Below the pieces are notes generated by a model, which worked only from the letters and a program-made list of their open reading frames with translations, searched no databases and had not been told where the DNA came from. DNA of 64,000 nucleotides, taken from the NCBI GenBank assembly GCA_963702285.1, contig CAVPCB010000078.1, positions 7,004 through 71,003 of the forward strand, read 5' to 3'. Numbering within the stretch: the first letter of the stretch is position 1; each line of letters opens with the position of its first letter. A program made the translations under genes and the position numbers. This DNA comes from an uncultured Acidobacteriaceae bacterium. GTDB lineage: Bacteria; Acidobacteriota; Terriglobia; Terriglobales; Acidobacteriaceae. This document shows, one piece after another, positions 15,961 through 35,521 of this stretch.

Positions 15961-17298
15961 CTAAAAGCTCTTGCCAAACCCGATCGTTACCGAGTTCTCC
16001 GACATCTTGCTCGTCACGCTGGTCCCCGGAATCGCTCCCTGCGCGGAGATCCACGGGCCGGTGATTGAATTCTGGAAGGCGTGATAGTACGTCACTACGG
16101 CATCCCACCCATGCATGTGCTGGATAATGCCGCCCGAGACGTGATGCTGCACAATCGCCGGAGCCGGCGTATTGAAAAACGTGTACTCAGCCGGAATCGG
16201 ATTGCCCGAGTAGTTGTAGCCGACCATCAGCTTGGTCGATGCAGCCACCCTCTGCTGCACGCCCCCGCCCACCGCCCAGATGTTGTGCCATCCAAAACCG
16301 GCGAGCGAGCCGTCGGCTTTGTATCCGACCTTGTCGAAGCCCGCGGTATTCGCGTAGTCAAACCAGCGAAGATCGACGCCCAACAGCGTGCCCCTGCGCG
16401 CTGCAACGCCCGCGCCCACAGAAACCACCTGCGGCAGATCCATGTGGAAGTTCATCGCGTGCGATGCCCCGGTCAGATCCTTGCGATTCCAGGAGAATTT
16501 CTGAAACCACACTGGTGACCGCCACGAGAGGCCAATTTTCACCGGACCCGCCACATAGTGAACTCCCGCGCTTGCGCCCAGGCCCGGAGCCGGCGCATTG
16601 TTTCCCGCTGAGAGGTAGTAGGGCATTGTGCTGCCCGCCATCACCGGCGGCGAGAACGGCGCAGGAATCACCTGCAGCATCGAGAGCGCCGGAATGATCG
16701 AGAACCCCGCCGAGAGCCGCTCGGTAAACTCACGCGAGACTCCCATCGGAACTGTCACCAGCATGTAGTTCGACCGGATGCGCCCGAAACCAAATCCATT
16801 CGGCGCCTGCGGTGTCAGGATCGGATTCGAGAATGTCGTGTTCTGGTCATAGTCCACGCCGAAACCACTCACTCCCAGCATCGCCGCGTGATAGGCATTG
16901 GGACTGCCCAGGCGATGGTAGATAAAAGAAAATCCCGGCATCAGCGAAGTATCGGTATGGCTAACCGTCGTTCCGCTCAGCGTGCCGGCAGGCATGCCAG
17001 GCCCAAACGCATTCGCATCCACCGTGCTGCTCAGCGAACGCCAGGGCGTGAAGATGGTCCCGTGAAACTCGAAACGAAAACCGGAAAACCTCGTCGCGCA
17101 GGCAGGGTTCCACGCAATCGAGCCCGTCGCATCCAGGCACAGCCCCGTGTCCGCTCCGCCCATGGCTTCATTCACTGGACCTGCGCCATGGAGAAAATGC
17201 CCATCGGTTGCCAACAGAGCGGTTGGACAGAGGAGCAACAAAAGCATCGTGAACACGAAGCCTGCATTGGAGCGGGACCAGAAAATGCGCGTTGTCAT
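15961..17298 (-). CDS. outer membrane transport protein, OMPP1/FadL/TodX family
   Basis: Signal peptide, GAGPVNEAMGGADTG N-terminal motif, alternating beta-strand pattern, C-terminal ...GFGKSF. Confidence 0.8.
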   Translation of the reverse strand: MTTRIFWSRSNAGFVFTMLLLLLCPTALLATDGHFLHGAGPVNEAMGGADTGLCLDATGSIAWNPACATRFSGFRFEFHGTIFTPWRSLSSTVDANAFGPGMPAGTLSGTTVSHTDTSLMPGFSFIYHRLGSPNAYHAAMLGVSGFGVDYDQNTTFSNPILTPQAPNGFGFGRIRSNYMLVTVPMGVSREFTERLSAGFSIIPALSMLQVIPAPFSPPVMAGSTMPYYLSAGNNAPAPGLGASAGVHYVAGPVKIGLSWRSPVWFQKFSWNRKDLTGASHAMNFHMDLPQVVSVGAGVAARRGTLLGVDLRWFDYANTAGFDKVGYKADGSLAGFGWHNIWAVGGGVQQRVAASTKLMVGYNYSGNPIPAEYTFFNTPAPAIVQHHVSGGIIQHMHGWDAVVTYYHAFQNSITGPWISAQGAIPGTSVTSKMSENSVTIGFGKSF

Positions 17299-17487
17299 GG
17301 ATGGCCTTCCTCACGAACCCCCCCGACTCGGCGCGACGCACCGGCGAGAGATTCCTGAGGAAGACAGGGCACGTCAGGGACCGAAGTGCCGACGTTGCGT
17401 TTTGAATGGCTTGAGAGTGGAGCAGAACTCAGGACGAAACGTTATGTTGCACGAAAACGTCGCAGATGAAACATCCTGTCGGGTCGC

Positions 17488-18936
17488 CTACTGGAGCTTC
17501 AGCTCCCTGATCCTGCGCCAGAGCGTCGACCGGCTCAGCCCCAGTTCCCGCGCCGCCTCGGCTCTTTTCCAATGATGCTTTTCCAGTGCTGCCAGCAAAC
17601 GCAGGGCTTCCGCGTCCCGCACCTCGGGTTCGACCTGCCTCAGTTGCGGGTCCGTACCCGTCTCTTCCTCGCCTGCGCCCGCTCCGCCAAGGGGATGCAG
17701 GATCTCCTGCGGCAGGTCCTCCGGAAGAATCGTCTCCCCGCGCGCCACCGCCACTCCATATTCGATGACGTTGGCCAGCTCGCGCACATTGCCCGGCCAC
17801 GCATAATCCAGCAGGATGCGCATCGCCTGCGGTGAAATGCGCCTCACCAGGCCACGCTGGGCCGTGATGCGGCTCAGCAAATGATGCACCAGCGGCGGAA
17901 TATCTTCGCGGCGCTCCCGCAGCGGCGGTACCTCCAGCGGCACCACGCACAGCCGATAATACAGATCTTCGCGGATCTTTCCCTGGCGTAATGCACAGCG
18001 CAGGTCGGCGTTGGTCGCCGCAATGATGCGTGCGTGCGTCGTCCTCGTCGCGCTTTCCCCCACCCGCTCGTACTGCCCTTCCTGCAGCACCCGCAGCAGC
18101 TTCACCTGCAGTTGCGGCGGAAGCTCCCCAATCTCATCGAGGAACAGCGTTCCCTGCGAGGCCAGCTCGAATCGACCAATCCGTTCGCGCACCGCCCCCG
18201 TAAATGCCCCACGCACATGCCCGAACAGTTCCGACTCCAGCAGATCGGCGGGCAGTGCCGCGCAGTTCACCGCCACGAACGGTCCGCCGCGGCGCGGTGA
18301 ACTCTGGTGAACCGCTCGCGCCACCACCTCTTTTCCAGCCCCGCTTTCTCCGGTGACCAGCACCGTGGCTTCGCTGTGTTGCAGAGTCTCGACCAGCCGA
18401 AAAATCCGCTGCATCGCCGGCGAACACCCCACCACACCGGAACAGAAGACCGGCGAGTCGGGGCAGGACTGCTCCTGTTCGGCCGGCCGCAGCAGGATCA
18501 GGAAACGCACCAGCGGATCGCAAATCTCGGAGTGATCCGTGACCATAGGGGCCGTGGTGATCGAAACCAGCCGCGGTCCGAAATCTTCGAACCGCAGCGT
18601 TGCCCGCCATCCTTCGCGCACCTGCCCATCCAGCAAAGCCTGGCGGAGCTGGCCGCGTGTGCCAAATAAATCTTCGCCCAGCAGCTCTTCCACCGGGCGT
18701 CCCGGCAACTTCGCCGCAACCCCCGGGCCAAGAAAATCGTTCAGCAGCTTCGAAACGTGCACGATGCGGAACGATGGGTCGAGACAGATAAAGGCCCGAC
18801 CGACCGAAGCCAGCGCGCGCGTGATGCCGTGCAAGGCCGCCTCGGTCAACTGGCTCAGCGACGGCTCACACCGGCTTGCAGCGTCCGTTGCAACAGCGGA
18901 GGCCATCTTCGAACTTCCTTCCTGCCCAACCCACAC
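17488..18936 (-). CDS. sigma54-dependent transcriptional activator (PAS + AAA+ + Fis-type HTH)
   Basis: Walker [15 protein letters not shown] loop, ELFGH, and a C-terminal HTH ([19 protein letters not shown]). Confidence 0.9.
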
Positions 18937-19223
18937 CAGTTTGTGCCGTACTACAGCGGTTGTAGGTGATCCTGGTCACAGAAAGGAGCAAGCGGCGGTC
19001 GGAAACCGGTTGGGGCGATGGATGCGGATAGCTATCGATGAACGCAGTTCTCCACCCATCCCGCGGCATTCACGGATTCATAGAGCGTCCAGATGCGGGA
19101 ATTCCTGTCGTCGACGGCGCTGTGAAGATCGCGCCGGAACACCGGGACCCACTCGTTCCCTGAGCCGGCTTTCACCGCGATAACGCGGGTAACATTCAGA
19201 TTGCAGGAAGGTTGCTGCTAAAT

Positions 19224-19310
19224 TGGTGCCGAAGAAGGGACTCGAACCCCCACACCCTTGCGAGTACGTGGACCTGAACCACGCGCGTCTGCCAATTCCG
19301 CCACTTCGGC
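19224..19310 (-). tRNA. tRNA-Leu (anticodon CAG), CCA encoded
   Basis: 87-nt cloverleaf: GCCGAAG acceptor, anticodon loop TTCAGGT, long variable arm, GGTTCGAGTCC T-arm, encoded terminal CCA. Confidence 0.9.
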
Positions 19311-19527
19311 ACGGATAGAATTCGGCGCGGCTCCAGGCTCCTGAACCGGCAAACGTTAACCGGCTGCGGGCGCGCCAAACAGGCAATGAACTGATTCTAT
19401 CGTATTCCCCGGCCCGCCGCGAGAGCCACGGATCACGCTGGACGCCAGCAACTCCTGGTGTTACAAAGGCATCCACCCGTGTCCAACCCCGCGCACATGG
19501 CGCTCGGACACGCATTTTCCTTCAGGA

Positions 19528-19773
19528 TTGCCCCCCTTCATGACCTCACCTTTGCAGCCCAAGTCGATTCCCGAGCAGCAGGCCAAAGAAATCCGGCGCC
19601 TCTCCCATGACCTCAGCAACGCCCTCGAAATCGTCCTGCAGACCAGCTTCCTCCTTGGCACCATCCCCCTCGACGACGACGCAAAAAAGTGGCACTCCAT
19701 GCTCGACAACGGCGTCCAGCAGGCCGCCGAAATCAACCGCCAGCTCCGCGAGTTCGTCCGCGGCAACAGCTGA
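19528..19773 (+). CDS. small stand-alone HisKA/DHp-like (H-box) protein
   Basis: 81 aa with H-box-like EIRRLSHDLSNALEIV and a second helix. No sensor or ATPase domain. Confidence 0.4.
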   Translation: MPPFMTSPLQPKSIPEQQAKEIRRLSHDLSNALEIVLQTSFLLGTIPLDDDAKKWHSMLDNGVQQAAEINRQLREFVRGNS

Positions 19774-19874
19774 GGTCGCCCAGCCCGCACTCACCCCGGC
19801 CCCGCCACCCTCTATAAGGATGAGATAATAGACACAGCTGTCAGGAGATCCTTTCCTCGACCGCCGTCCAAAAT

Positions 19875-20227
19875 GGGGGCGTCACGGTTTCGACGGGATT
19901 GCTTGCGGCATAGAGGCATGCCGGGGTCTGGGCACCCGTAATCGCCTGGAAAACCATAATTGCCAACACCAATCAGCTGGCATACGCAGCCTAATTAGTT
20001 AGACTGCCGTTCTCCTCGGCTTCGCCCTTGGGCTGAGAGCAGGACGTCGAACAGAGGGCTGGTTGCCGACCCTCGGTCCGTGGGCCGGCAGCGAGATCAT
20101 CGGACTAGTTTCCGGCGTTTCTTGTCCGCTCTAAGCGCCGAAAGCGAAACTTCCGAACGGACTGAGCATGGAGTCTCTCTGCTGTCAACGATTTCGGACG
20201 CGGGTTCGACTCCCGCCGCCTCCACCA
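19875..20227 (+). ncRNA. ssrA: tmRNA (ssrA)
   Basis: 5' GGGGGCGTCACGGTTTCGACGGG and 3' GGACGCGGGTTCGACTCCCGCCGCCTCCACCA, acceptor stem with G3:U. Tag ORF at 19962-19994 encodes ANTNQLAYAA followed by TAA. Confidence 0.9.
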
Positions 20228-20237
20228 GCCTTCGCGA

Positions 20238-20760
20238 AGCGAAGGCTGTCGCGCCGAAGCAAAGCGTAGGCGGACCAATCATGGAAAGCGAAGGCTGTCG
20301 CGCCGAAGCAAAGCGTAGGCGGACCAATCATGGAAAGCGAAGGCTGTCGCGCCGAAGCAAAGCGTAGGCGGACCAATCATGGAAAGCGAAGGCTGTCGCG
20401 CCGAAGCAAAGCGTAGGCGGACCAATCATGGAAAGCGAAGGCTGTCGCGCCGAAGCAAAGCGCAGGCGGACCAATCATGGAAAGCGAAGGCTGTCGCGCC
20501 GAAGCAAAGCGTAGGCGGACCCATCATGGAAAGCGAAGGCTGTCGCGCCGGAGCAAAGCGTAGGCGGACCCATCATGGAAAGCGAAGGCTGTCGCGCCGG
20601 AGCAAAGCGCAGGCGGACCAATCATGGAAAGCGAAGGCTGTCGCGCCGAAGCAAAGCGTAGGCGGACCAATCATGGAAAGCGAAGGCTGCCGCGCCGGAG
20701 CAAAGCGCAGGCACATGCGTAGCGAAGGCTGTCGCGCCGAAGCAAAGCGTAGGCGGACCA
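20238..20760. repeat. 49-bp tandem repeat, about 10 full copies plus 1 partial
   Basis: Unit AGCGAAGGCTGTCGCGCCGAAGCAAAGCGTAGGCGGACCAATCATGGAA starts at 20238, 20287, 20336 ... 20679 and 20721. A few SNP variants occur. Confidence 0.95.
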
Positions 20761-20789
20761 CACAGGCAGATGGCGAAGGCGGACAAATC

Positions 20790-21029
20790 ATGAAATACGT
20801 CTACATCCTCCAGAGCCTCGCTCCAGAAGAGCATTTCTATACGGGGATCACCGACGACCTCGATGCCCGACTGGCAAAACACAATTCCGGCGCTGTAACG
20901 CATACTTCAGAGTTCCGCCCATGGCGTATCAAGAGCTATATCGCGTTTACAGATGAGGCTCGTGCGACTGCTTTTGAAACGTACCTGAAGTCCGGCTCAG
21001 GCCGCGCATTTGCGAAAGCCAGGCTCTAA
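20790..21029 (+). CDS. GIY-YIG nuclease family protein (small, UPF0213-like)
   Basis: 79 aa from MKYVYILQS...HFYTGITDDLDARLAKHN. The track ORF fuses it in-frame to the repeat array. Confidence 0.75.
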   Translation: MKYVYILQSLAPEEHFYTGITDDLDARLAKHNSGAVTHTSEFRPWRIKSYIAFTDEARATAFETYLKSGSGRAFAKARL

Positions 21030-21086
21030 GCCACCAGCGAGTTGGTAGACTCCGTACATTCCGGCGCCTGCTCGAAGGAGAAATCC

Positions 21087-21401
21087 ATGGACTATACATT
21101 TCTCGCAGACCTGCACAAAGAATTCGCGCCACCCGAAAACGGAATCCTCAGCCGGATCCTCCACAAAGACGAAAAGGTGAACGTCACCCTGTTTGGCTTC
21201 TCGTCCGGGCAGGAACTCTCCGCACACTCAGCCCCAACTCCCGCCATCCTCTATTTTTTAGACGGAAACGCCGAAGTCCAGTTGGGAGAGGATAAGGTCA
21301 ACGCCCAGGCAGGCTCATTTGTCTACATGCCTCCCATGTTGACGCACGCCATCTCCGCAAAATCTCCGGTCAGGATGCTGCTGATTCAGATCAAGGCCTG
21401 A
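21087..21401 (+). CDS. cupin domain protein
   Basis: 104 aa from MDYTFL with AGGAG upstream. Cupin-like motifs GQELSAHSAP...YFLDG and YMPPMLTHAI. Confidence 0.7.
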   Translation: MDYTFLADLHKEFAPPENGILSRILHKDEKVNVTLFGFSSGQELSAHSAPTPAILYFLDGNAEVQLGEDKVNAQAGSFVYMPPMLTHAISAKSPVRMLLIQIKA

Positions 21402-21424
21402 GCCCGCGGAGTCTTCGGAAACCT

Positions 21425-21829
21425 CTAACCGGCGATCGGCGCGGCGCTGTATTGAGGCGATGGAGCGCGCAGCCGCTCAATCAACTCGGCGGGGTCGAAT
21501 GGTTTGGCAAGAATGTCGAAGTGATGTCCATGAGAACGCGCTTCCGCCAACAGGTCGCTCGTCAACGCATTTCCTGAGAACAGCAGGACCTGCGTGCCGG
21601 GGCAGAGTTCACGAATCCTGATCGCCGCATCGATGCCGCTCAGCGTGCCCATCACCACGTCCGATACCACCCAGTCCGGCTCCACATTGTACGCAACATC
21701 GACCGCCTCTTCACCGCTGCGGGCCGTGAATACCGTGAACCCATGCCCTTTCAGAATCGCGGCCAGAGTTACAAGAATTCCGTGCTCATTGTCGACCACC
21801 AAAACCGTAGGTAAAGGTTGCAGCGACAT
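21425..21829 (-). CDS. single-domain response regulator (CheY-like receiver)
   Basis: 134 aa with VLVVDNE, phospho-acceptor context VVSDVVM, LFSG and AKPF. Confidence 0.85.
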   Translation of the reverse strand: MSLQPLPTVLVVDNEHGILVTLAAILKGHGFTVFTARSGEEAVDVAYNVEPDWVVSDVVMGTLSGIDAAIRIRELCPGTQVLLFSGNALTSDLLAEARSHGHHFDILAKPFDPAELIERLRAPSPQYSAAPIAG

Positions 21830-21947
21830 TGTGAGGTCCCTTGAATAAAATTGACTGAGAGTTATGCTTTATGATGTCATCGCCTGCAATTAAGTTGTAC
21901 AAAGGACGACAGTAACCTATATCGACTTACATATTCATCGAGGAATT

Positions 21948-22355
21948 ATGGTCTCTATCGACTTCGAATATCAGGGCGATCTCCACTGCCAGGCCGCTCA
22001 CGGCCCTTCCGGCACCGTGCTGACCACCGACGCCCCCAAAGACAATCACGGCCGCGGCGAAAGCTTCTCCCCCACCGATCTCGTCGCCACCGCCCTCGGC
22101 AGCTGCATGTTGACAACCATGGGCATCCTCGCCCACACCCTCAACGTCGACCTCGCCGGAGCCACCGCCACCGTCGATAAAGAAATGACCAGCACGCCGT
22201 CTCGCATGGTCCACCAGCTCACCGTCAAAATCCACGTCCCCCGCGCCTTCAGCGCCGACAACCAAACTAAACTCGAACGAGCCGCCCTCACCTGTCCCGT
22301 CGCAAAAACCCTCAACCCGAGCGTCCAGATCCCCACCGAATTCACCTGGGGATAA
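21948..22355 (+). CDS. OsmC/Ohr family peroxiredoxin-like protein
   Basis: 135 aa with FSPTDLVATALGSCM and ALTCPVAKTL, the two conserved Cys. Confidence 0.85.
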   Translation: MVSIDFEYQGDLHCQAAHGPSGTVLTTDAPKDNHGRGESFSPTDLVATALGSCMLTTMGILAHTLNVDLAGATATVDKEMTSTPSRMVHQLTVKIHVPRAFSADNQTKLERAALTCPVAKTLNPSVQIPTEFTWG

Positions 22356-22369
22356 GATCTCCGCTTTCC

Positions 22370-22397
22370 GACCGCCAACCGCTGACCGCTGACCGCT
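22370..22397. repeat. heptanucleotide tandem array (GACCGCT)x4
   Basis: GACCGCC AACCGCT GACCGCT GACCGCT, lying 15 nt after the OsmC stop. Confidence 0.8.
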
Positions 22398-22557
22398 CCC
22401 CCGGGTTGTACCCCCTTCGCGGTGTTTACTCTTCCCCATTCGTGGACTGTCGCCGCTCCCCGCCGCACGCGACCATGAACCTACTGCCGCGTAGTTCCTC
22501 CCCCACCTTTTCGCGGCGTCGTGGCTCCCACCGCGTTCCTGGGCCACGTTCCAACGC

Positions 22558-23373
22558 GTGCGTACCATGACCGCCGAAACTCCAATTCCCGACCCGGCGT
22601 TCTCCTTTGCCTTCCAGCCCATCGTCGACGCGGTGGCCCACAAAATCATTGGTTACGAAGCCCTCATCCGCGGCCCCTGGGACGAGCCCGCCTGGCAGGT
22701 CCTCAACCAGGTCTCTCCCCTGCGCCGCCACCTCTTCGATCCGACCGCGCACGCCGCCGCCATCGCGCTCGCCGCTCGCCTCGGCATCGACCACCCGCTC
22801 CATCTCAATTTCCTCCCTCAGACCCTCGACGCGTCTCCCAAAGCAGTCCTCGCCACCATCGAAGCCGCGCGCCAGGCCGGCTTGCCCCCCGACCAAATCG
22901 TCGTTGAAATCCCCGAGGCCGAAGTCGTCGTCGAGCGCAATCGCTTCGCCTCGCTCCTCAAGGACGTCCGCGCCCTCGGCGTCCGCCTCGCCATCGACGA
23001 CTTCGGCGCCACCTACGCCAGCCTCACCCTCCTCGACGACCTCGACCCAGACCAGATCAAGCTCGACATGCGCCTCATCCGCGGCGTCGATCGCCCTGGC
23101 CCCCGCCAGGCTATCCTCCGCGCCATCCGCCGCGCCTGCTACGACCTCGACATCGACGTCATCGCCGAAGGCGTCGAGACGCTCGCCGAATTCCAGTTCC
23201 TCGCCGGCCAGCGCATTCGCCTCTTCCAGGGATACCTCTTCGCGCGCCCCACCTTCGAAGCCCTTCCGCCCGTGAACTTCCCCGAGCCGGCATCCGCCTC
23301 CGCATCCATCCCGCCCGCCCGCGCCACCGCCTCCCGCCCCGCACCTGCCGCTCGCTCAAAGAAGCGAGCCTGA
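22558..23373 (+). CDS. EAL-domain protein (putative c-di-GMP phosphodiesterase)
   Basis: Motifs FQPIV, YEALIRG, EIPE, AIDDFG, KLD, EGVE and QGY. Pro/Ala-rich C-terminal tail. Confidence 0.85.
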   Translation: MRTMTAETPIPDPAFSFAFQPIVDAVAHKIIGYEALIRGPWDEPAWQVLNQVSPLRRHLFDPTAHAAAIALAARLGIDHPLHLNFLPQTLDASPKAVLATIEAARQAGLPPDQIVVEIPEAEVVVERNRFASLLKDVRALGVRLAIDDFGATYASLTLLDDLDPDQIKLDMRLIRGVDRPGPRQAILRAIRRACYDLDIDVIAEGVETLAEFQFLAGQRIRLFQGYLFARPTFEALPPVNFPEPASASASIPPARATASRPAPAARSKKRA

Positions 23374-23430
23374 TCCTCCCGGCTCTCACTAAACTCCAAA
23401 CTCTAATCCCCAAACTCTCGTCGCCCCGCC

Positions 23431-24480
23431 TTGTACACTCAACTTGAAATGCCAAAAGCCGAAGACCCCGAGCGCCTCGTCAACGCCAACCGCTCCAGCG
23501 AAGAAGACTCCTTCGAGCTCAAGCTCCGCCCCCGCCGCCTCCAGGAATTCATCGGCCAGACCAAAGCCAAAGAGCAGCTTGCTATCGCCCTCGAAGCCGC
23601 CAGGTCCCGCGGCGAAGCCCTCGACCACGTCCTCCTCTTCGGCCCCCCAGGACTGGGCAAAACCACCCTCGCCACCATCATCGCCAACGAGCTCGACGTC
23701 GCCTACCAGCAGACCTCCGGCCCCGCGCTCCAGATCCAGGGCGACCTCACCGCCATCCTCACCAACCTGCGCGACCGCCAGGTCCTCTTCCTCGACGAGA
23801 TCCACCGCCTCCAGCCCGTGCTCGAAGAAAAACTCTACACCGCGCTCGAGGACTACAAGCTCGACATCATCATCGGCCAGGGCCCCGCCGCGCGCACCCA
23901 CGTCATGGAGATCAAGCCCTTCACCTTCGTCGCCGCCACCACGCGCCCCGGCCTGCTCTCCTCGCCACTCCGTTCGCGCTTCGGCATCCTCCTCCGCCTC
24001 GAGTTCTATACCGACGAGGACCTCCGCTACATCGTCACCCGCTCCGCCGAAGTTATGAGCATCGAAATCGATCAGGACGGAGCCGCAGAGATCGCCATGC
24101 GCAGCCGCGGAACCCCGCGCATCGCCAACCGCCTGTTAAGACGAGTGAGAGACTTCGCCCAGGTAAGAGCCGCCGGCCGCATCGACCGCCAAACCGCCTG
24201 CGACGCATTAAAGATGTTAGAAGTAGACGCCCACGGCTTCGACGAGTTAGACCGCCGCCTCATGCTCACCATCATCGAAAAGTACGATGGAGGCCCCGTA
24301 GGCTTAGGAACCTTAGCCGCAACCCTAGCCGAAGAAGAAGACGCGTTAGAAGAAGTCTACGAACCCTTCTTAATCCAAATCGGCTTCTTAGACCGCACAC
24401 CCAGAGGCCGAGTCGCCACAAGACTAGCCTACGAACACTTCGGCTTACCGTTGCCCCGCAAACAACCCGGGCTGTTCTAG
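23431..24480 (+). CDS. ruvB: Holliday junction branch migration DNA helicase RuvB
   Basis: [12 protein letters not shown], Walker [33 protein letters not shown]. The start may be the second Met at 23449. Confidence 0.95.
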
Positions 24481-24807
24481 TCATCAGGCTGCGATCAGGA
24501 CAAGCCACAGTTGACAGCCGCCCACATCCCCGCATCTCTCCCCAAAAACCAAAACTCTGTCATCCTGAGCGAAGCTTCCGAATTCGTTGCGCGCGCTTTT
24601 TGCGCGCAACAATCAATCCAGACGCCGTCACCCTGAGCGAACGCCGAGCAGCGCTCGGCGAGTCGAATGGGCGAATGGACCTGCATTTCTCGGCTGGAAC
24701 AACCACGAATTTCCACCCGAACGAACTGCATTTCTTCCGCCAGACCCAGCAGAATCCACGTTACCCAAGTCAGTTGCAAACCTACCCAAAACCTCTACGC
24801 TGCGATC

Positions 24808-25140
24808 ATGCGCGACCGCAGCTACTACGTCTACATCATCGCCAGCCGCACCCGCGTTCTCTATACCGGCATGACCGGCAACATCGAAGCCCGTGCCGCC
24901 CAGCACAAAACCAAATACTTCGCAGGATTCACAGCCGACTACAACTGCTGCCGCCTCGTCTGGTACGAGAGTTATGACGACCCCAACCGCGCCATCGAAC
25001 GCGAAAAACAAATCAAGCGGTGGATCCGCGCCAAAAGGCTCGGCCTCATCCAAAGAATGAACCCCACCTGGATCGATCTCAGCGAAAACTGGGGCAAGCT
25101 CCTCCAGCCGATCTCACCACAGCTGGGAATCTCTCGCTGA
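24808..25140 (+). CDS. GIY-YIG nuclease family protein
   Basis: 110 aa from MRDRSYYVYIIAS...LYTGMTGNIEARAAQH...REKQIKRW. The upstream part of the track ORF is non-coding repeat. Confidence 0.8.
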   Translation: MRDRSYYVYIIASRTRVLYTGMTGNIEARAAQHKTKYFAGFTADYNCCRLVWYESYDDPNRAIEREKQIKRWIRAKRLGLIQRMNPTWIDLSENWGKLLQPISPQLGISR

Positions 25141-27337: not shown

Positions 27338-27379
27338 CTACTCCCTACTCCCTACTCCCTACTCCCTACTCTCTACTCT
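27338..27379. repeat. heptanucleotide tandem array (CTACTCC)x4 + (CTACTCT)x2
   Basis: Lies between the convergent stops at 27327 and 27373. The last units overlap the final codons of the OPT gene. Confidence 0.9.
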
Positions 27380-29679: not shown

Positions 29680-29757
29680 GTACCCTGTGCCCTGTGCCCT
29701 GCGCCCTGCGCCCTGTGCCCTGTGCCCTGTACCCTGACGTGCTGTACCCTGTTTTCT
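29680..29757. repeat. heptanucleotide tandem array (GTGCCCT-type) x8 plus 2 trailing copies
   Basis: GTACCCT GTGCCCT GTGCCCT GCGCCCT GCGCCCT GTGCCCT GTGCCCT GTACCCT, then an 8-nt gap and GTACCCT GTTTTCT. It sits between the divergent OPT and EamA starts. Confidence 0.9.
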
Positions 29758-33695: not shown

Positions 33696-33751
33696 CTCCC
33701 AGCTCCCAGCTCCCAGCCCCAGGCTCCCAGCCCCAGGCTCCCAGCTTCCGG
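33696..33751. repeat. heptanucleotide tandem array (CTCCCAG/CCCCAGG) x8
   Basis: CTCCCAG x3, CCCCAGG, CTCCCAG, CCCCAGG, CTCCCAG, CTTCCGG. It lies between divergent gene starts at 33611 and 33762. Confidence 0.9.
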
Positions 33752-35328: not shown

Positions 35329-35521
35329 CAAAACTCGACCCAGTTTGATATCAACTCGGCCGAGTTCCCCATCAAACTCGGCCTAGTTTGAATCAAACTC
35401 AGCCGAGTAGGAAGTGACTTCTTATCAATCAAAAACGCCAACACCACCCAGTTTTGACGTCAAACTCGGCCGTGTTTGACATCAACTCGGCCGAGTTGTA
35501 AGTGACTTGTCTTGTATCAAG
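35329..35521. repeat. cluster of 6-7 copies of a 14-20-bp palindrome (consensus TCAAACTCGGCCGAGTTTGA) in two ~90-bp modules
   Basis: Perfect AACTCGGCCGAGTT at 35353-35366 and 35483-35496, with degenerate copies at 35329, 35371, 35392 and 35461. Each module ends with AAGTGACTT..CTT..ATCAA. Confidence 0.85.

What the first reader, a model, noticed from the sequence alone, without database searches (positions are those of the whole stretch)
20228..20789. 49-bp x ~11 tandem minisatellite starting one nucleotide after the CCA end of tmRNA and running into a GIY-YIG gene
Seen: directly after ssrA (end 20227) lies an 8-bp-stem hairpin, GCCTTCGC-GAA-GCGAAGGC (20228-20246). Its right arm is the first bases of a 49-bp unit repeated head-to-tail with a strict 49-nt period from 20238. 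There are ten copies, with the tenth shortened to 42 nt, then a final partial copy starting at 20721, and only three variable positions. The array stops 29 nt before the GIY-YIG start codon. Because 49 is not a multiple of 3, the array reads in all three frames. The track nevertheless shows an ORF (20379-21029) that fuses 137 repeat-derived codons in frame to the nuclease. Established: tmRNA 3' ends are hot spots for island integration, and small GIY-YIG genes are often tRNA-adjacent selfish elements. Inference: the array could be a hypervariable trailer affecting ssrA 3' processing or termination. It could instead be an array of protein-binding sites, or a footprint of repeated GIY-YIG-associated events.
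Basis: partly seen in the sequence, partly recalled or inferred. Interest (0 to 1): 0.62.

Follow-up and report, generated by a model that had tools for sequence, protein, structure and literature searches.

The report
Amplified nuclease hairpin site after tmRNA
The 49-base repeat after the tmRNA gene is ten tandem copies of a conserved DNA hairpin that, in many soil bacteria, sits exactly at the end of tRNA and tmRNA genes next to a tiny GIY-YIG nuclease gene; it is probably that nuclease's recognition site, amplified.

Summary
A 49-bp x 10.8 tandem array (20237-20760) lies between ssrA (19875-20227) and a 79-aa GIY-YIG gene (20790-21029).

The unit is not anonymous. It is one copy of a conserved hairpin, 'B' (GTC(G)CGCC-GNA-GC..GC-GNA-GGCGGAC), preceded by GCGAAGGCT. 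A covariance model finds 10 intact copies and 1 damaged copy in the array, and none elsewhere in the 64 kb.

The same hairpin precedes nearly all 80 homologous GIY-YIG genes (Acidobacteriota, Alphaproteobacteria). At least 67 of these genes follow a tRNA or tmRNA gene, and the spacer begins GCCTTCGC directly after CCA. In 80 metagenome loci chosen by the hairpin alone, about 55 follow a tRNA or tmRNA, but only about 22 carry the nuclease gene.

An inverted partner hairpin, 'A', incorporates the CCA. Its loops read C(GNA)G on the opposite strand and its bulge base co-varies with B's. This favours folded single-stranded DNA over RNA.

The protein is a minimal Slx1/UPF0213-like domain. The closest published system is Ssn nucleases with their SRM/NTS hairpin repeats, but the published SRM motif is not met.

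The array most likely arose by slippage or unequal recombination, perhaps stimulated by the nuclease. The 216-aa fusion ORF is an accident. Copy number could not be checked in raw reads.

The parts
19875..20227 (+). ssrA (tmRNA), intact, ending in CCA
   Evidence: ARAGORN. Rfam RF00023 at 191.6 bits over model positions 1-374.
20226..20248 (+). 10-bp perfect hairpin CAGCCTTCGC-GAA-GCGAAGGCTG. The left arm is the universal element start (CCA|GCCTTCGC). The right arm is the conserved sequence 5' of hairpin B. The loop is C(GAA)G.
   Evidence: Sequence. The same short form occurs in L018, L038 and L009, with compensatory changes ACCTTCGC/GCGAAGGT and ACTTTCGCC/GGCGAAAGT.
20237..20760 (+). 49-bp x 10.8 tandem array. 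Each unit is GCGAAGGCT + hairpin B + the spacer CAATC + ATG GAA.
   Evidence: TRF; unit table.
20239..20275 (+). Hairpin B copy 1. Copies 2-9 lie at +49 nt steps: 20288-20324, 20337-20373, 20386-20422, 20435-20471, 20484-20520, 20533-20569, 20582-20618 and 20631-20667.
   Evidence: Model R1 scores of 52.5-53.7 bits, E about 1e-12 each.
20680..20714 (+). Damaged hairpin B (unit 10). The 3' arm is replaced by CACATGCGT.
   Evidence: R1 score 21.7 bits; sequence.
20722..20758 (+). Hairpin B copy 11, the last intact copy, 31 nt before the ATG.
   Evidence: R1 score 53.7 bits.
20773..20784 (+). Remnant GCGAAGGC|GGAC: the conserved 5' sequence of hairpin B fused to its last bases. It looks like a deletion between the internal direct repeats GCGAAGGC and GCGTAGGC. 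It lies 5 nt before the real ATG.
   Evidence: Sequence. Intact relatives place GGCGGAC about 5-6 nt before the ATG.
20790..21029 (+). 79-aa single-domain GIY-YIG nuclease gene, Slx1/UPF0213-like.
   Evidence: Pfam PF01541. PDB sequence search: 1zg2, E = 4e-5. AlphaFold pLDDT 95. Foldseek: Slx1 with TM 0.70-0.74 and 1zg2. The GIY, YIG, Arg, His and Glu motif positions are invariant in 32 homologues.
20379..21029 (+). 216-aa 'fusion' ORF, judged spurious.
   Evidence: Every unit has ATG GAA. Most such ORFs stop after 28 codons at the TAG of GCGTAGGC. The long ORFs exist only where T>C at unit position 30 removes that stop. In single-copy relatives the gene starts at MKYVY.

Best explanation
The array is a tandem amplification (10 intact copies plus 1 damaged) of one module of a small element. 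This element occupies the 3' end of tRNA and tmRNA genes in Acidobacteriota, Alphaproteobacteria and other soil bacteria.

SHOWN:
- The full element starts GCCTTCGC directly after the CCA.
- It holds two hairpins of the same design in inverted orientation. 'A' includes the CCA in its stem. 'B' is GTC(G)CGCC-GNA-GC..GC-GNA-GGCGGAC, preceded by GCGAAGGCT.
- In a minority of copies it is followed within about 5 nt by a 79-aa Slx1/UPF0213-like GIY-YIG gene.
- The window's unit is hairpin B plus its conserved 5' sequence plus the short spacer and start codon of the nuclease gene. A relative (L018) has exactly one such unit at ssrA.

INFERRED:
- The hairpins act as folded single-stranded DNA, B on the sense strand and A on the antisense strand.
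- They are the recognition sites of the adjacent nuclease, as shown experimentally for Ssn nucleases and their NTS/SRM hairpins. On that analogy the cut would fall a few bases 5' of the hairpin, inside GCGAAGGCT.
- The array grew by slippage or unequal recombination between units and between the internal direct repeats GCG(A/T)AGGC. This was possibly stimulated by nicks from the nuclease and by hairpin stalling. The site lies just downstream of a very highly transcribed gene, where the sense strand is often single-stranded.
- The array itself probably has no adaptive role. At most it acts as a cluster of binding sites and decoy start codons in front of the nuclease gene.
- The long fusion ORF is an accident of T>C changes.
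For: 1. Unit identity. Model R1, built from 56 hairpin B sequences of other loci plus one window unit, hits the window 10 times at 52-54 bits and once at 21.7 bits. All hits are on the + strand and inside the array. Nothing else in the 64 kb reaches E = 0.05.
2. Structure. In 56 sequences 96.6% of cells pair, 40 cells have changes on both sides, and 0 of 500 shuffles reach this. This is repeated on 88 distinct metagenome copies: 97.9% paired, 45 double changes.
3. Context.
- At least 67 of 80 GIY-YIG homologues lie 50-440 nt downstream of a tRNA or tmRNA on the same strand, with GCCTTCGC right after CCA.
- Of 106 R1 hits in those loci, 102 are on the gene's strand, almost all just upstream of the ATG.
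- 5 loci also have a copy just after the stop codon.
4. The element is independent of the ORF. Of 80 metagenome loci picked by the hairpin alone, about 55 follow a tRNA or tmRNA (15 or more tRNA types plus tmRNA), and only about 22 have the nuclease. The others abut what read, by eye from their first residues, as tuf, secE, tig and tilS.
5. DNA rather than RNA.
- In module A, 52 of 65 triloops are C(TNC)G on the sense strand, which is C(GNA)G on the antisense strand.
- B's long-stem variants carry GNA loops on the sense strand.
- A's bulge base read on the antisense strand matches B's bulge base in 103 of 130 pairs. For G versus C, Fisher p = 2e-8, not corrected for phylogeny.
6. Protein. It is a minimal GIY-YIG domain with invariant motif residues and a confident model closest to Slx1 and UPF0213.
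7. Precedent. Ssn GIY-YIG proteins of 94 aa bind a hairpin repeat only as ssDNA, on one strand, and cut upstream of it. Their genes are flanked by the repeat (PMC11893778).
8. Recurrence of arrays. L031 has 73 bp x 6.5 at ssrA, with the same layout in metagenome contig L083. L005 has 134 bp x 2.6. L055, L057, L059, L039, L072 and L099 have about two copies.
9. Unit variation. The three sites that vary among full units are the two free 'N' positions of the GNA loops and one spacer base. No stem base varies.
Against: - No experiment or read data shows that this protein binds or cuts the hairpin.
- The published SRM search motif has no match in the window.
- The protein's nearest solved relatives are UPF0213 and Slx1. 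Membership of the Ssn clade (cd10448) could not be tested.
- The bulge co-variation and the shared orientation could reflect common descent of linked sequences rather than recognition by one protein.
- Wobble pairs on the sense strand (14-15 cells) fit RNA as well as ssDNA.
- DNA folding energy of the array is no better than shuffles, z = 0.76.
- In the window the gene-proximal site is a remnant, so the real gene lacks an intact hairpin at the usual -5 position.
- Logan contigs of three samples give repeat depths only 1-2 times the flank. The copy number of about 11 may therefore not hold in those populations, or may be mis-assembled.
Confidence: 0.6

Rival explanations
1. RNA-level element. 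The hairpins are part of the tmRNA/tRNA 3' trailer and of the nuclease mRNA leader, co-transcribed from the ssrA promoter. They guide 3' processing or mask the Shine-Dalgarno-like GGAGG in the 3' arm. The array multiplies this signal and adds decoy start codons.
For: - All copies are on the transcribed sense strand.
- There is no promoter-like or terminator-like site between ssrA and the gene.
- GGAGG lies in the 3' arm, 10-12 nt before the ATG, in most homologues.
- G-U wobble cells occur on this strand.
- One RNA contig in a bioreactor metatranscriptome runs 12 nt past the CCA into GCCTTCGCGAAG.
Against: - Hairpin B is equally well conserved (50-64 bits) in copies that have no nuclease gene behind them, so it is not simply that gene's translational operator.
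- Module A carries its GNA triloops and its matching bulge on the antisense strand, which this transcript does not contain.
- No Rfam family matches.
- RNA contigs otherwise end at the CCA.
Confidence: 0.15
2. Plain minisatellite. A GC-rich, self-similar spacer expanded by replication slippage alone. The nuclease plays no part and the copies have no function.
For: - Units 1-4 and 9 are identical and the period is strict at 49 nt.
- Internal direct repeats GCGAAGGC and GCGTAGGC offer slippage points, and the remnant at 20773-20784 looks like such a deletion.
- Different unit variants occur in different samples.
Against: - It does not explain why the amplified piece is exactly the family-wide conserved hairpin.
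- It does not explain why arrays of that hairpin recur at other loci of this family (L031/L083, L005 and others).
- It does not explain why no stem position varies among units.
- This rival differs from the main explanation only in denying a role for the nuclease.
Confidence: 0.15
3. Assembly artefact. The true locus has one or two units, and the assembler inflated the count.
For: - The repeat unitigs in Logan assemblies of soil runs have depths only about 1-2 times the flanks: X1 4.06 versus about 2.7, X2 3.6 versus about 3.7 or more, X4 5.99 versus 2.86.
- The canonical unit of the window was not seen as a unitig in X1 or X2.
Against: - 79-nt unitigs (49 + 30, the length expected from a closed 31-mer cycle) in X1 and X2 show at least two consecutive units in independent samples. 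A 79-nt piece in X4 is identical to the unit 5-7 stretch (laid at 20474-20550), including its variant order.
- The ordered pattern of unit variants and the shortened unit 10 are not what a collapsed or inflated repeat usually looks like.
- Similar arrays exist in other assemblies.
- The samples are at 2-3x depth, so depth ratios are weak.
Confidence: 0.07
4. The array is coding. The 216-aa ORF gives the nuclease a repeat-derived N-terminal extension.
For: The ORF 20379-21029 is open and in frame.
Against: - A period of 49 is not a multiple of 3.
- Most unit ATGs give 28-codon ORFs ended by the TAG of GCGTAGGC, and the long ORF depends on two T>C variants.
- All 80 homologues start at MKYVY about 5 nt after the hairpin.
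- Neither ORF is on record as a called gene.
Confidence: 0.01

Closest known systems
Ssn single-strand-specific GIY-YIG nucleases with NTS/SRM hairpin repeats (SsnA of Neisseria meningitidis; Chenal et al. 2025, PMC11893778)
   Same: - A single-domain GIY-YIG protein under 100 aa.
- A cognate 20-50 nt imperfect hairpin with a conserved 5' flank that gives it an orientation.
- Hairpin copies next to the gene, and in some loci on both sides of it.
- Many gene-less copies.
- Experimentally, Ssn binds the hairpin only as ssDNA, on one strand, and cuts upstream of it.
   Different: - The published SRM degenerate motif is not matched.
- The protein's nearest solved relatives are UPF0213 and Slx1, and cd10448 membership is untested.
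- Here the hairpins are anchored at the CCA end of tRNA and tmRNA genes and come as an inverted pair. The paper's main text mentions neither tRNA nor tandem arrays.
- The hairpins here are not dispersed in the 64 kb examined.
REP/BIME (REPIN) sequences and their RAYT (TnpA-REP) genes; IS200/IS605 hairpin ends
   Same: - Short imperfect palindromes with mismatches or bulges, acting as folded ssDNA.
- They occur as inverted doublets.
- They flank the gene of their cognate nuclease and also exist as many gene-less copies.
- They are prone to local clustering.
(From my own knowledge and the discussion in PMC11893778.)
   Different: - The enzyme there is an HUH tyrosine transposase that makes covalent intermediates. 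Here it is a GIY-YIG hydrolase, which cannot do strand transfer alone.
- Here there is a strict location at tRNA and tmRNA 3' ends rather than genome-wide dispersal.
Slx1 and bacterial UPF0213 (YhbQ, BH0048, EF2693) GIY-YIG domains
   Same: Closest fold and sequence: TM 0.70-0.74 to Slx1 at about 30% identity, and 1zg2 at E = 4e-5. Slx1 cuts branched and stem-loop DNA by structure.
   Different: - Slx1 has a RING domain and needs Slx4.
- No cognate repeat or tRNA linkage is described for UPF0213 proteins.
- I found no paper on one.
SegB of phages T4/T6, a free-standing GIY-YIG homing endonuclease in the tRNA gene cluster (PMC13096335)
   Same: A GIY-YIG nuclease gene sits among tRNA genes. By the paper's abstract, it promotes segmental amplification of neighbouring DNA.
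   Different: - SegB is larger, with a DNA-binding part, and cuts double-stranded tRNA gene DNA.
- It has no cognate hairpin repeats.
- It is a phage gene, not a chromosomal one.

Membership tests
Ssn / SRM system (cd10448; PMC11893778) | Single-domain GIY-YIG protein of about 80-110 aa | tested here: met
   79 aa. PF01541 covers residues 1-70. The model is a bare GIY-YIG fold.
Ssn / SRM system (cd10448; PMC11893778) | Assignment to CDD cd10448 (GIY-YIG_unchar_3), or placement in the Ssn clade | not testable with these tools
   No CDD library and no SsnA sequence were at hand. NCBIfam gave no hit. The nearest PDB entries are UPF0213 and Slx1.
Ssn / SRM system (cd10448; PMC11893778) | Gene flanked by a cognate hairpin repeat that has a conserved upstream sequence | tested here: met
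   10-11 copies lie upstream in the window. Nearly all 80 homologues have the hairpin upstream, and 5 also have one downstream. The conserved GCGAAGGCT lies 5' of the hairpin. The window has no downstream copy.
Ssn / SRM system (cd10448; PMC11893778) | Repeat matches the published SRM pattern HGTCWYN(0-2)YYVSBRHN(0-5)WNVSBRGN(0-2)RNCYNB | tested here: not met
   0 matches on either strand of the window. The unit has TGTCGC where the pattern needs GTCWY.
Ssn / SRM system (cd10448; PMC11893778) | ssDNA-specific, strand-specific binding with cleavage upstream of the hairpin | not testable with these tools
   This needs biochemistry. Indirect support for ssDNA comes from the strand-specific GNA loops and the bulge co-variation.
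REP/RAYT (REPIN) systems | Cognate enzyme is an HUH (Y1) TnpA-REP transposase | tested here: not met
   The adjacent gene is GIY-YIG. The ORFs listed within about 3 kb of the array (17000-24000) were not searched for a transposase, and Pfam was run on only four of them.
REP/RAYT (REPIN) systems | Inverted doublets of an imperfect palindrome, many gene-less copies | tested here: met
   A and B are inverted copies of one hairpin design. Most metagenome copies lack the gene.
Free-standing GIY-YIG homing endonuclease (Seg type) | Nuclease domain joined to a DNA-binding domain, cutting a double-stranded target in ORF-less alleles | tested here: not met
   The protein is 79 aa with no extra domain. 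The cleavage target was not tested.
Structured RNA family (Rfam) | Match to a curated covariance model | tested here: not met
   Only tmRNA and tRNA were found. The leader gave nothing, neither in the window nor in 12 full leaders nor in a permissive scan.
Hypervariable minisatellite (VNTR) | Copy number differs between close strains | tested here: inconclusive
   Logan contigs from samples with 99-100% identical flanks carry other unit variants and low repeat depth. No reads span the array.

The most novel reading that the evidence does not exclude
The inverted hairpin pair (A, which includes the tRNA's CCA, and B), with or without the 79-aa gene, is a distinct class of selfish or mobile DNA. 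It targets the CCA end of tRNA and tmRNA genes. A minimal Slx1-like GIY-YIG nuclease recognises the folded hairpins in single-stranded DNA on both strands. Gene-less copies are non-autonomous derivatives. Tandem arrays such as this one are scars of repeated cleavage and out-of-register repair.

Three observations fit this reading. Sister proteins sit at different tRNA genes (L019 at tRNA-Ile, L022 at tRNA-Arg). Some placements cross phyla. In L099 second element copies start right after the CCA-like end of module A.
Probability: 0.2. Interest if true: 0.85.

Novelty: new variant of a known kind. Interest (0 to 1): 0.6.

Why it matters
UPF0213/YhbQ-type mini GIY-YIG proteins are very common and have no assigned role. 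The only published function for comparable proteins, Ssn in 2025, links them to hairpin repeats in ssDNA.

This locus ties a second, differently shaped hairpin to such a nuclease. It also shows that the hairpin is anchored with base precision to the CCA end of many tRNA genes and of ssrA in several phyla, and that it can amplify into arrays.

If the nuclease-hairpin link is confirmed, it would explain a widespread feature of tRNA gene flanks. It would add a new enzyme and site pair to the small set of sequence-specific ssDNA nucleases. It would also give a testable case of nuclease-driven repeat instability beside an essential RNA gene.

Tried and rejected
I could not count hairpins or GIY-YIG genes in the window's own genome.
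- Exact look-ups of the 79-aa and 216-aa products found no record. The neighbouring cupin gene led only to a 1-kb Logan contig that starts inside the last unit.
- A scan of metagenome contigs for the unit-to-unit junction found nothing.
- Rfam gave no family for the leader.
- The published SRM pattern has no match.
- NCBIfam gave no hit.
- Metatranscriptome contigs cover only the tmRNA body.
- The promoter and terminator scan found nothing between ssrA and the gene.
- DNA folding energy is not better than shuffles, so thermodynamics alone is no evidence.
- Synteny with relatives is not conserved beyond ssrA and GIY-YIG. tmRNA identity is about 80%, so no empty-site comparison was possible.
- I first thought the 3' half of the unit was simply the leader of the nuclease mRNA. 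I dropped that reading when gene-less copies proved equally conserved.
- I considered pairing between GCTTCGGCTCGGCAGGCC and GGCTGTCGCGCCGGAGC as an RNA helix. By eye, the W/N positions showed no compensatory pattern across loci (sequences). The similarity is better explained as an inverted DNA repeat.
- Literature searches found no description of tRNA-end hairpin elements with GIY-YIG genes in bacteria.
Full report
**Observation.** The sequence is as described.
- tmRNA lies at 19875-20227 on the + strand (ARAGORN, tag ANTNQLAYAA; Rfam 191.6 bits over the whole model).
- Tandem Repeats Finder reports one large array, 20237-20760: period 49, 10.8 copies, 93% matches.
- A 28-nt piece of the unit occurs 11 times, against 0 in shuffles.
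- The hairpin after the CCA is real. It extends to ten pairs, CAGCCTTCGC-GAA-GCGAAGGCTG (20226-20248), using the last two bases of the CCA.
- Units 1-4 and 9 are identical. Units 5-8 differ only at unit positions 20, 30 and 40. Unit 10 is cut to 42 nt and unit 11 is partial. A 29-nt tail then precedes the ATG at 20790.
- The gene encodes 79 aa and matches Pfam GIY-YIG.
- The 216-aa ORF exists.

**What the unit is.** The last third of each unit (GCGTAGGCGGACCAATCATG) resembles the bases just before the nuclease gene's own start (GCGAAGGCGGACAAATCATG).
- I fetched 80 loci encoding homologues of the protein, at 65-90% identity, from Acidobacteriota and Alphaproteobacteria with a few other phyla.
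- Nearly all carry the same 37-46 nt module immediately upstream of the ATG: GCGAAGGCT, then GTC(G)CGCC-GNA-GC[variable stem-loop]GC-GNA-GGCGGAC.
- The proposed hairpin is a 7-bp outer stem with one bulged base, a symmetric 3x3 GNA/GNA internal loop, and an inner stem of variable length. Comparison supports it: 96.6% of 588 cells pair, 40 cells have changes on both sides, and no shuffle or slid register comes near.
- It holds again on 88 distinct copies from metagenomes.
- A covariance model of it finds ten full-scoring copies and one damaged copy in the window. All are in the array on the + strand, and nothing comparable lies elsewhere in the 64 kb.
- A relative, L018, has a 51-nt ssrA-to-ATG spacer that is one such unit: GCCTTCGCGAAGCGAAGGTTGTCGCGCCGTTGCCTTGGTGAAGGCGGAATCATG. 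The window's array is therefore that single-unit state amplified.

**The wider element.**
- In at least 67 of the 80 loci the gene lies 50-440 nt downstream of a tRNA (Ile, Arg, Ala, Val, Tyr, Met, Leu) or tmRNA gene on the same strand. Several of the remaining 13 loci show a truncated ...CCACCA|GCCTTCGC junction.
- The spacer always begins GCCTTCGC directly after the CCA.
- Most spacers also hold a second module, 'A': NCCA-GCC-TTC-GC-X-loop-X'-GC-TWC-GGCT(S)GG-CA(R)GCC. There are 91 distinct examples, and X/X' is Watson-Crick in 347 of 360 positions.
- Read on the antisense strand, A has the same design as B: 2-3 bp, one bulged base, 4 bp, a GNA/GNA internal loop, GC, then a variable stem-loop. 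Its outer stem uses the complement of the tRNA's CCA.
- I then asked whether the hairpin needs the gene. A scan of metagenome contigs for 22 nt of module B alone gave 80 loci.
- About 55 of them follow a tRNA or tmRNA within 20-130 nt: 15 or more tRNA types, including Cys, Lys, Gln, Gly, Trp, Ser, SeC and Thr, plus tmRNA. Most of the rest have too little upstream sequence to judge.
- Only about 22 are followed by a homologue of the nuclease. The others run into genes that, by eye from their first residues, look like tuf, secE, tig or tilS.
- So the hairpin pair is an element of tRNA and tmRNA 3' flanks in its own right. The nuclease gene accompanies a minority of copies.

**DNA or RNA?** Three points favour folded single-stranded DNA.
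- The terminal loops of A are C(TNC)G on the sense strand in 52 of 65 triloops. That is C(GNA)G on the antisense strand. The long-stem variants of B carry GNA loops on the sense strand. From my own knowledge, C(GNA)G is the classic very stable DNA triloop, as in d(GCGAAGC).
- The bulged base of A, read on the antisense strand, equals the bulged base of B in 103 of 130 neighbouring pairs. For G versus C, Fisher p = 2e-8, not corrected for shared descent. A transcript of one strand gives no reason for that.
- B is as well conserved without a gene behind it as with one, so it is not merely a translational operator.

Against this, wobble pairs on the sense strand fit RNA too, and the folding energy of the array is unremarkable. 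No Rfam family matches.

**The protein.**
- 32 homologues share invariant residues at the GIY, YIG, Arg, His and Glu motif positions.
- The AlphaFold model is confident, pLDDT 95.
- Its best structural matches are the nuclease domain of Slx1 (TM 0.70-0.74, about 30% identity) and the UPF0213 protein BH0048. BH0048 is also the best sequence match in the PDB.
- In a tree, the 15 ssrA-linked genes all come from Acidobacteriaceae and cluster (4 changes against 14 in shuffles). This suggests long residence at ssrA in that family.
- tRNA-linked genes change tRNA type between close sisters (for example L019 at Ile and L022 at Arg), and a few placements cross phyla.

**Arrays elsewhere and variation.**
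- Multiplication of the module recurs. L031 (another Terracidiphilus MAG) has seven hairpin B copies with a 73-nt period between ssrA and the gene. Metagenome contig L083 has the same layout; it may come from the same data.
- L005 has 134 nt x 2.6. Several other loci have two copies. In L054, L064 and L071 leader copies bracket the ORF.
- The window's 11 is the largest count among about 160 loci.
- Within the window, the only sites that vary among full units are the two 'N' positions of the GNA loops and one spacer base.
- The remnant GCGAAGGC|GGAC at 20773-20784 looks like a deletion between the internal direct repeats GCGAAGGC and GCGTAGGC.
- Only Logan contigs were available as read evidence. 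In X1 and X2, 79-nt unitigs (49 + 30, the length expected from a closed 31-mer cycle) show at least two consecutive units. They carry variants other than the window's canonical unit, at depths 1-1.5 times the flanks.
- X4 has a 79-nt piece identical to the unit 5-7 stretch (laid at 20474-20550), at twice the flank depth.
- This shows that the repeat exists in nature and differs between populations. It cannot size the array.

**Mechanism.** The closest published system is the Ssn family (PMC11893778).
- There, 94-aa single-domain GIY-YIG proteins bind a hairpin repeat (NTS/SRM) only as ssDNA, on one strand, and cut a few bases upstream. Their genes are flanked by the repeat.
- By analogy I propose that hairpin B on the sense strand and hairpin A on the antisense strand are the sites of the adjacent nuclease, with the cut inside the conserved GCGAAGGCT.
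- Directly downstream of a very highly transcribed RNA gene, the sense strand is often unpaired. That would suit an ssDNA-specific enzyme. This step is inference.
- Arrays would arise by slippage or unequal exchange between units, favoured by hairpin stalling and possibly by nicks. A phage GIY-YIG enzyme, SegB, has been reported to drive segmental amplification near tRNA genes (abstract of PMC13096335).
- I see no evidence that the array has a function of its own.
- The fusion ORF is an accident. Each unit has ATG GAA, and most such ORFs end after 28 codons at the TAG of GCGTAGGC. The long ORFs appear only where T>C removes that stop.

**Membership and novelty.** The locus works like an Ssn/SRM pair, but I cannot file it as one.
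- The published SRM pattern is not met.
- The CDD class could not be tested.
- The nearest solved relatives are UPF0213 and Slx1.
- The Ssn paper's main text mentions neither tRNA genes nor tandem arrays.
- My literature searches found no description of CCA-anchored hairpin elements with GIY-YIG genes.
- Earlier unchecked notes of this scan describe many tRNA-linked mini GIY-YIG cassettes with hairpins, some with arrays. One of them pointed me to the Ssn paper. A later check of one such note put the 'mobile element' reading at 14 in 100, and I keep my own odds for that reading low, at 0.2.

**Limits.**
There is therefore no census in the window's own genome and no empty-site comparison.
- No raw reads were available.
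- There is no biochemistry.

Noticed in passing
window 24541-25140: A second, different small GIY-YIG gene lies at 24808-25140 (110 aa, 32% identical to the first). It is preceded by other hairpin-like motifs (TGTCATCCTGAGCGAAGC at about 24558, and GTCACCCTGAGCGAACGCCGAGCAGCGCTCGGCG at about 24630). It is not next to a tRNA. The published SRM pattern does not match here either.
   Followed up: partly
L032:2481-3240: Nested arrangement. After tRNA-Ile and GCCTTCGCCCGCAG comes a different GIY-YIG ORF (MPFHVYVLQS...). Then comes a duplicate of the last 32 nt of the tRNA including CCA, then a full A+B leader, and then a homologue of the window's gene that has lost its ATG.
   Followed up: no
L054:2885-3340; L064:2930-3300; L071:2840-3400: The leader, or its hairpin B part, is repeated directly after the stop codon of the nuclease gene. 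The ORF is therefore bracketed by direct repeats of about 40-100 nt.
   Followed up: partly
L099 (tRNA-Leu, no nuclease gene): Two to three whole elements lie in tandem. The second copy starts GCCTTCGC right after the ...GGCAGGCCA end of the first copy's module A, as if that CCA-like end served as a new target.
   Followed up: no
L111, L118, L098, L134, L113: Gene-less hairpin elements sit between a tRNA gene and what read, by eye from the first residues, as tuf (after tRNA-Thr and tRNA-Gly), secE (after tRNA-Trp), tig (after tRNA-Leu) and tilS (after tRNA-Met). They therefore lie inside classic tRNA-led operons.
   Followed up: no
window 20196-20239, run X11: One 446-nt RNA contig of a bioreactor metatranscriptome (depth 29) runs 12 nt past the tmRNA CCA into GCCTTCGCGAAG. 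It may be a precursor from a related organism, or DNA carry-over.
   Followed up: no
window 19224-19310 (- strand): The only tRNA gene in the window (tRNA-Leu CAG) has no GCCTTCGC element after its CCA. Not every tRNA gene of this genome is occupied.
   Followed up: yes
window 27338-27378, 29683-29736, 33696-33746: There are three short heptamer arrays (CTACTCC, CCCTGTG, CTCCCAG) and a 21-nt repeat at 35331-35497 in the TRF output. They are unrelated to this finding.
   Followed up: no
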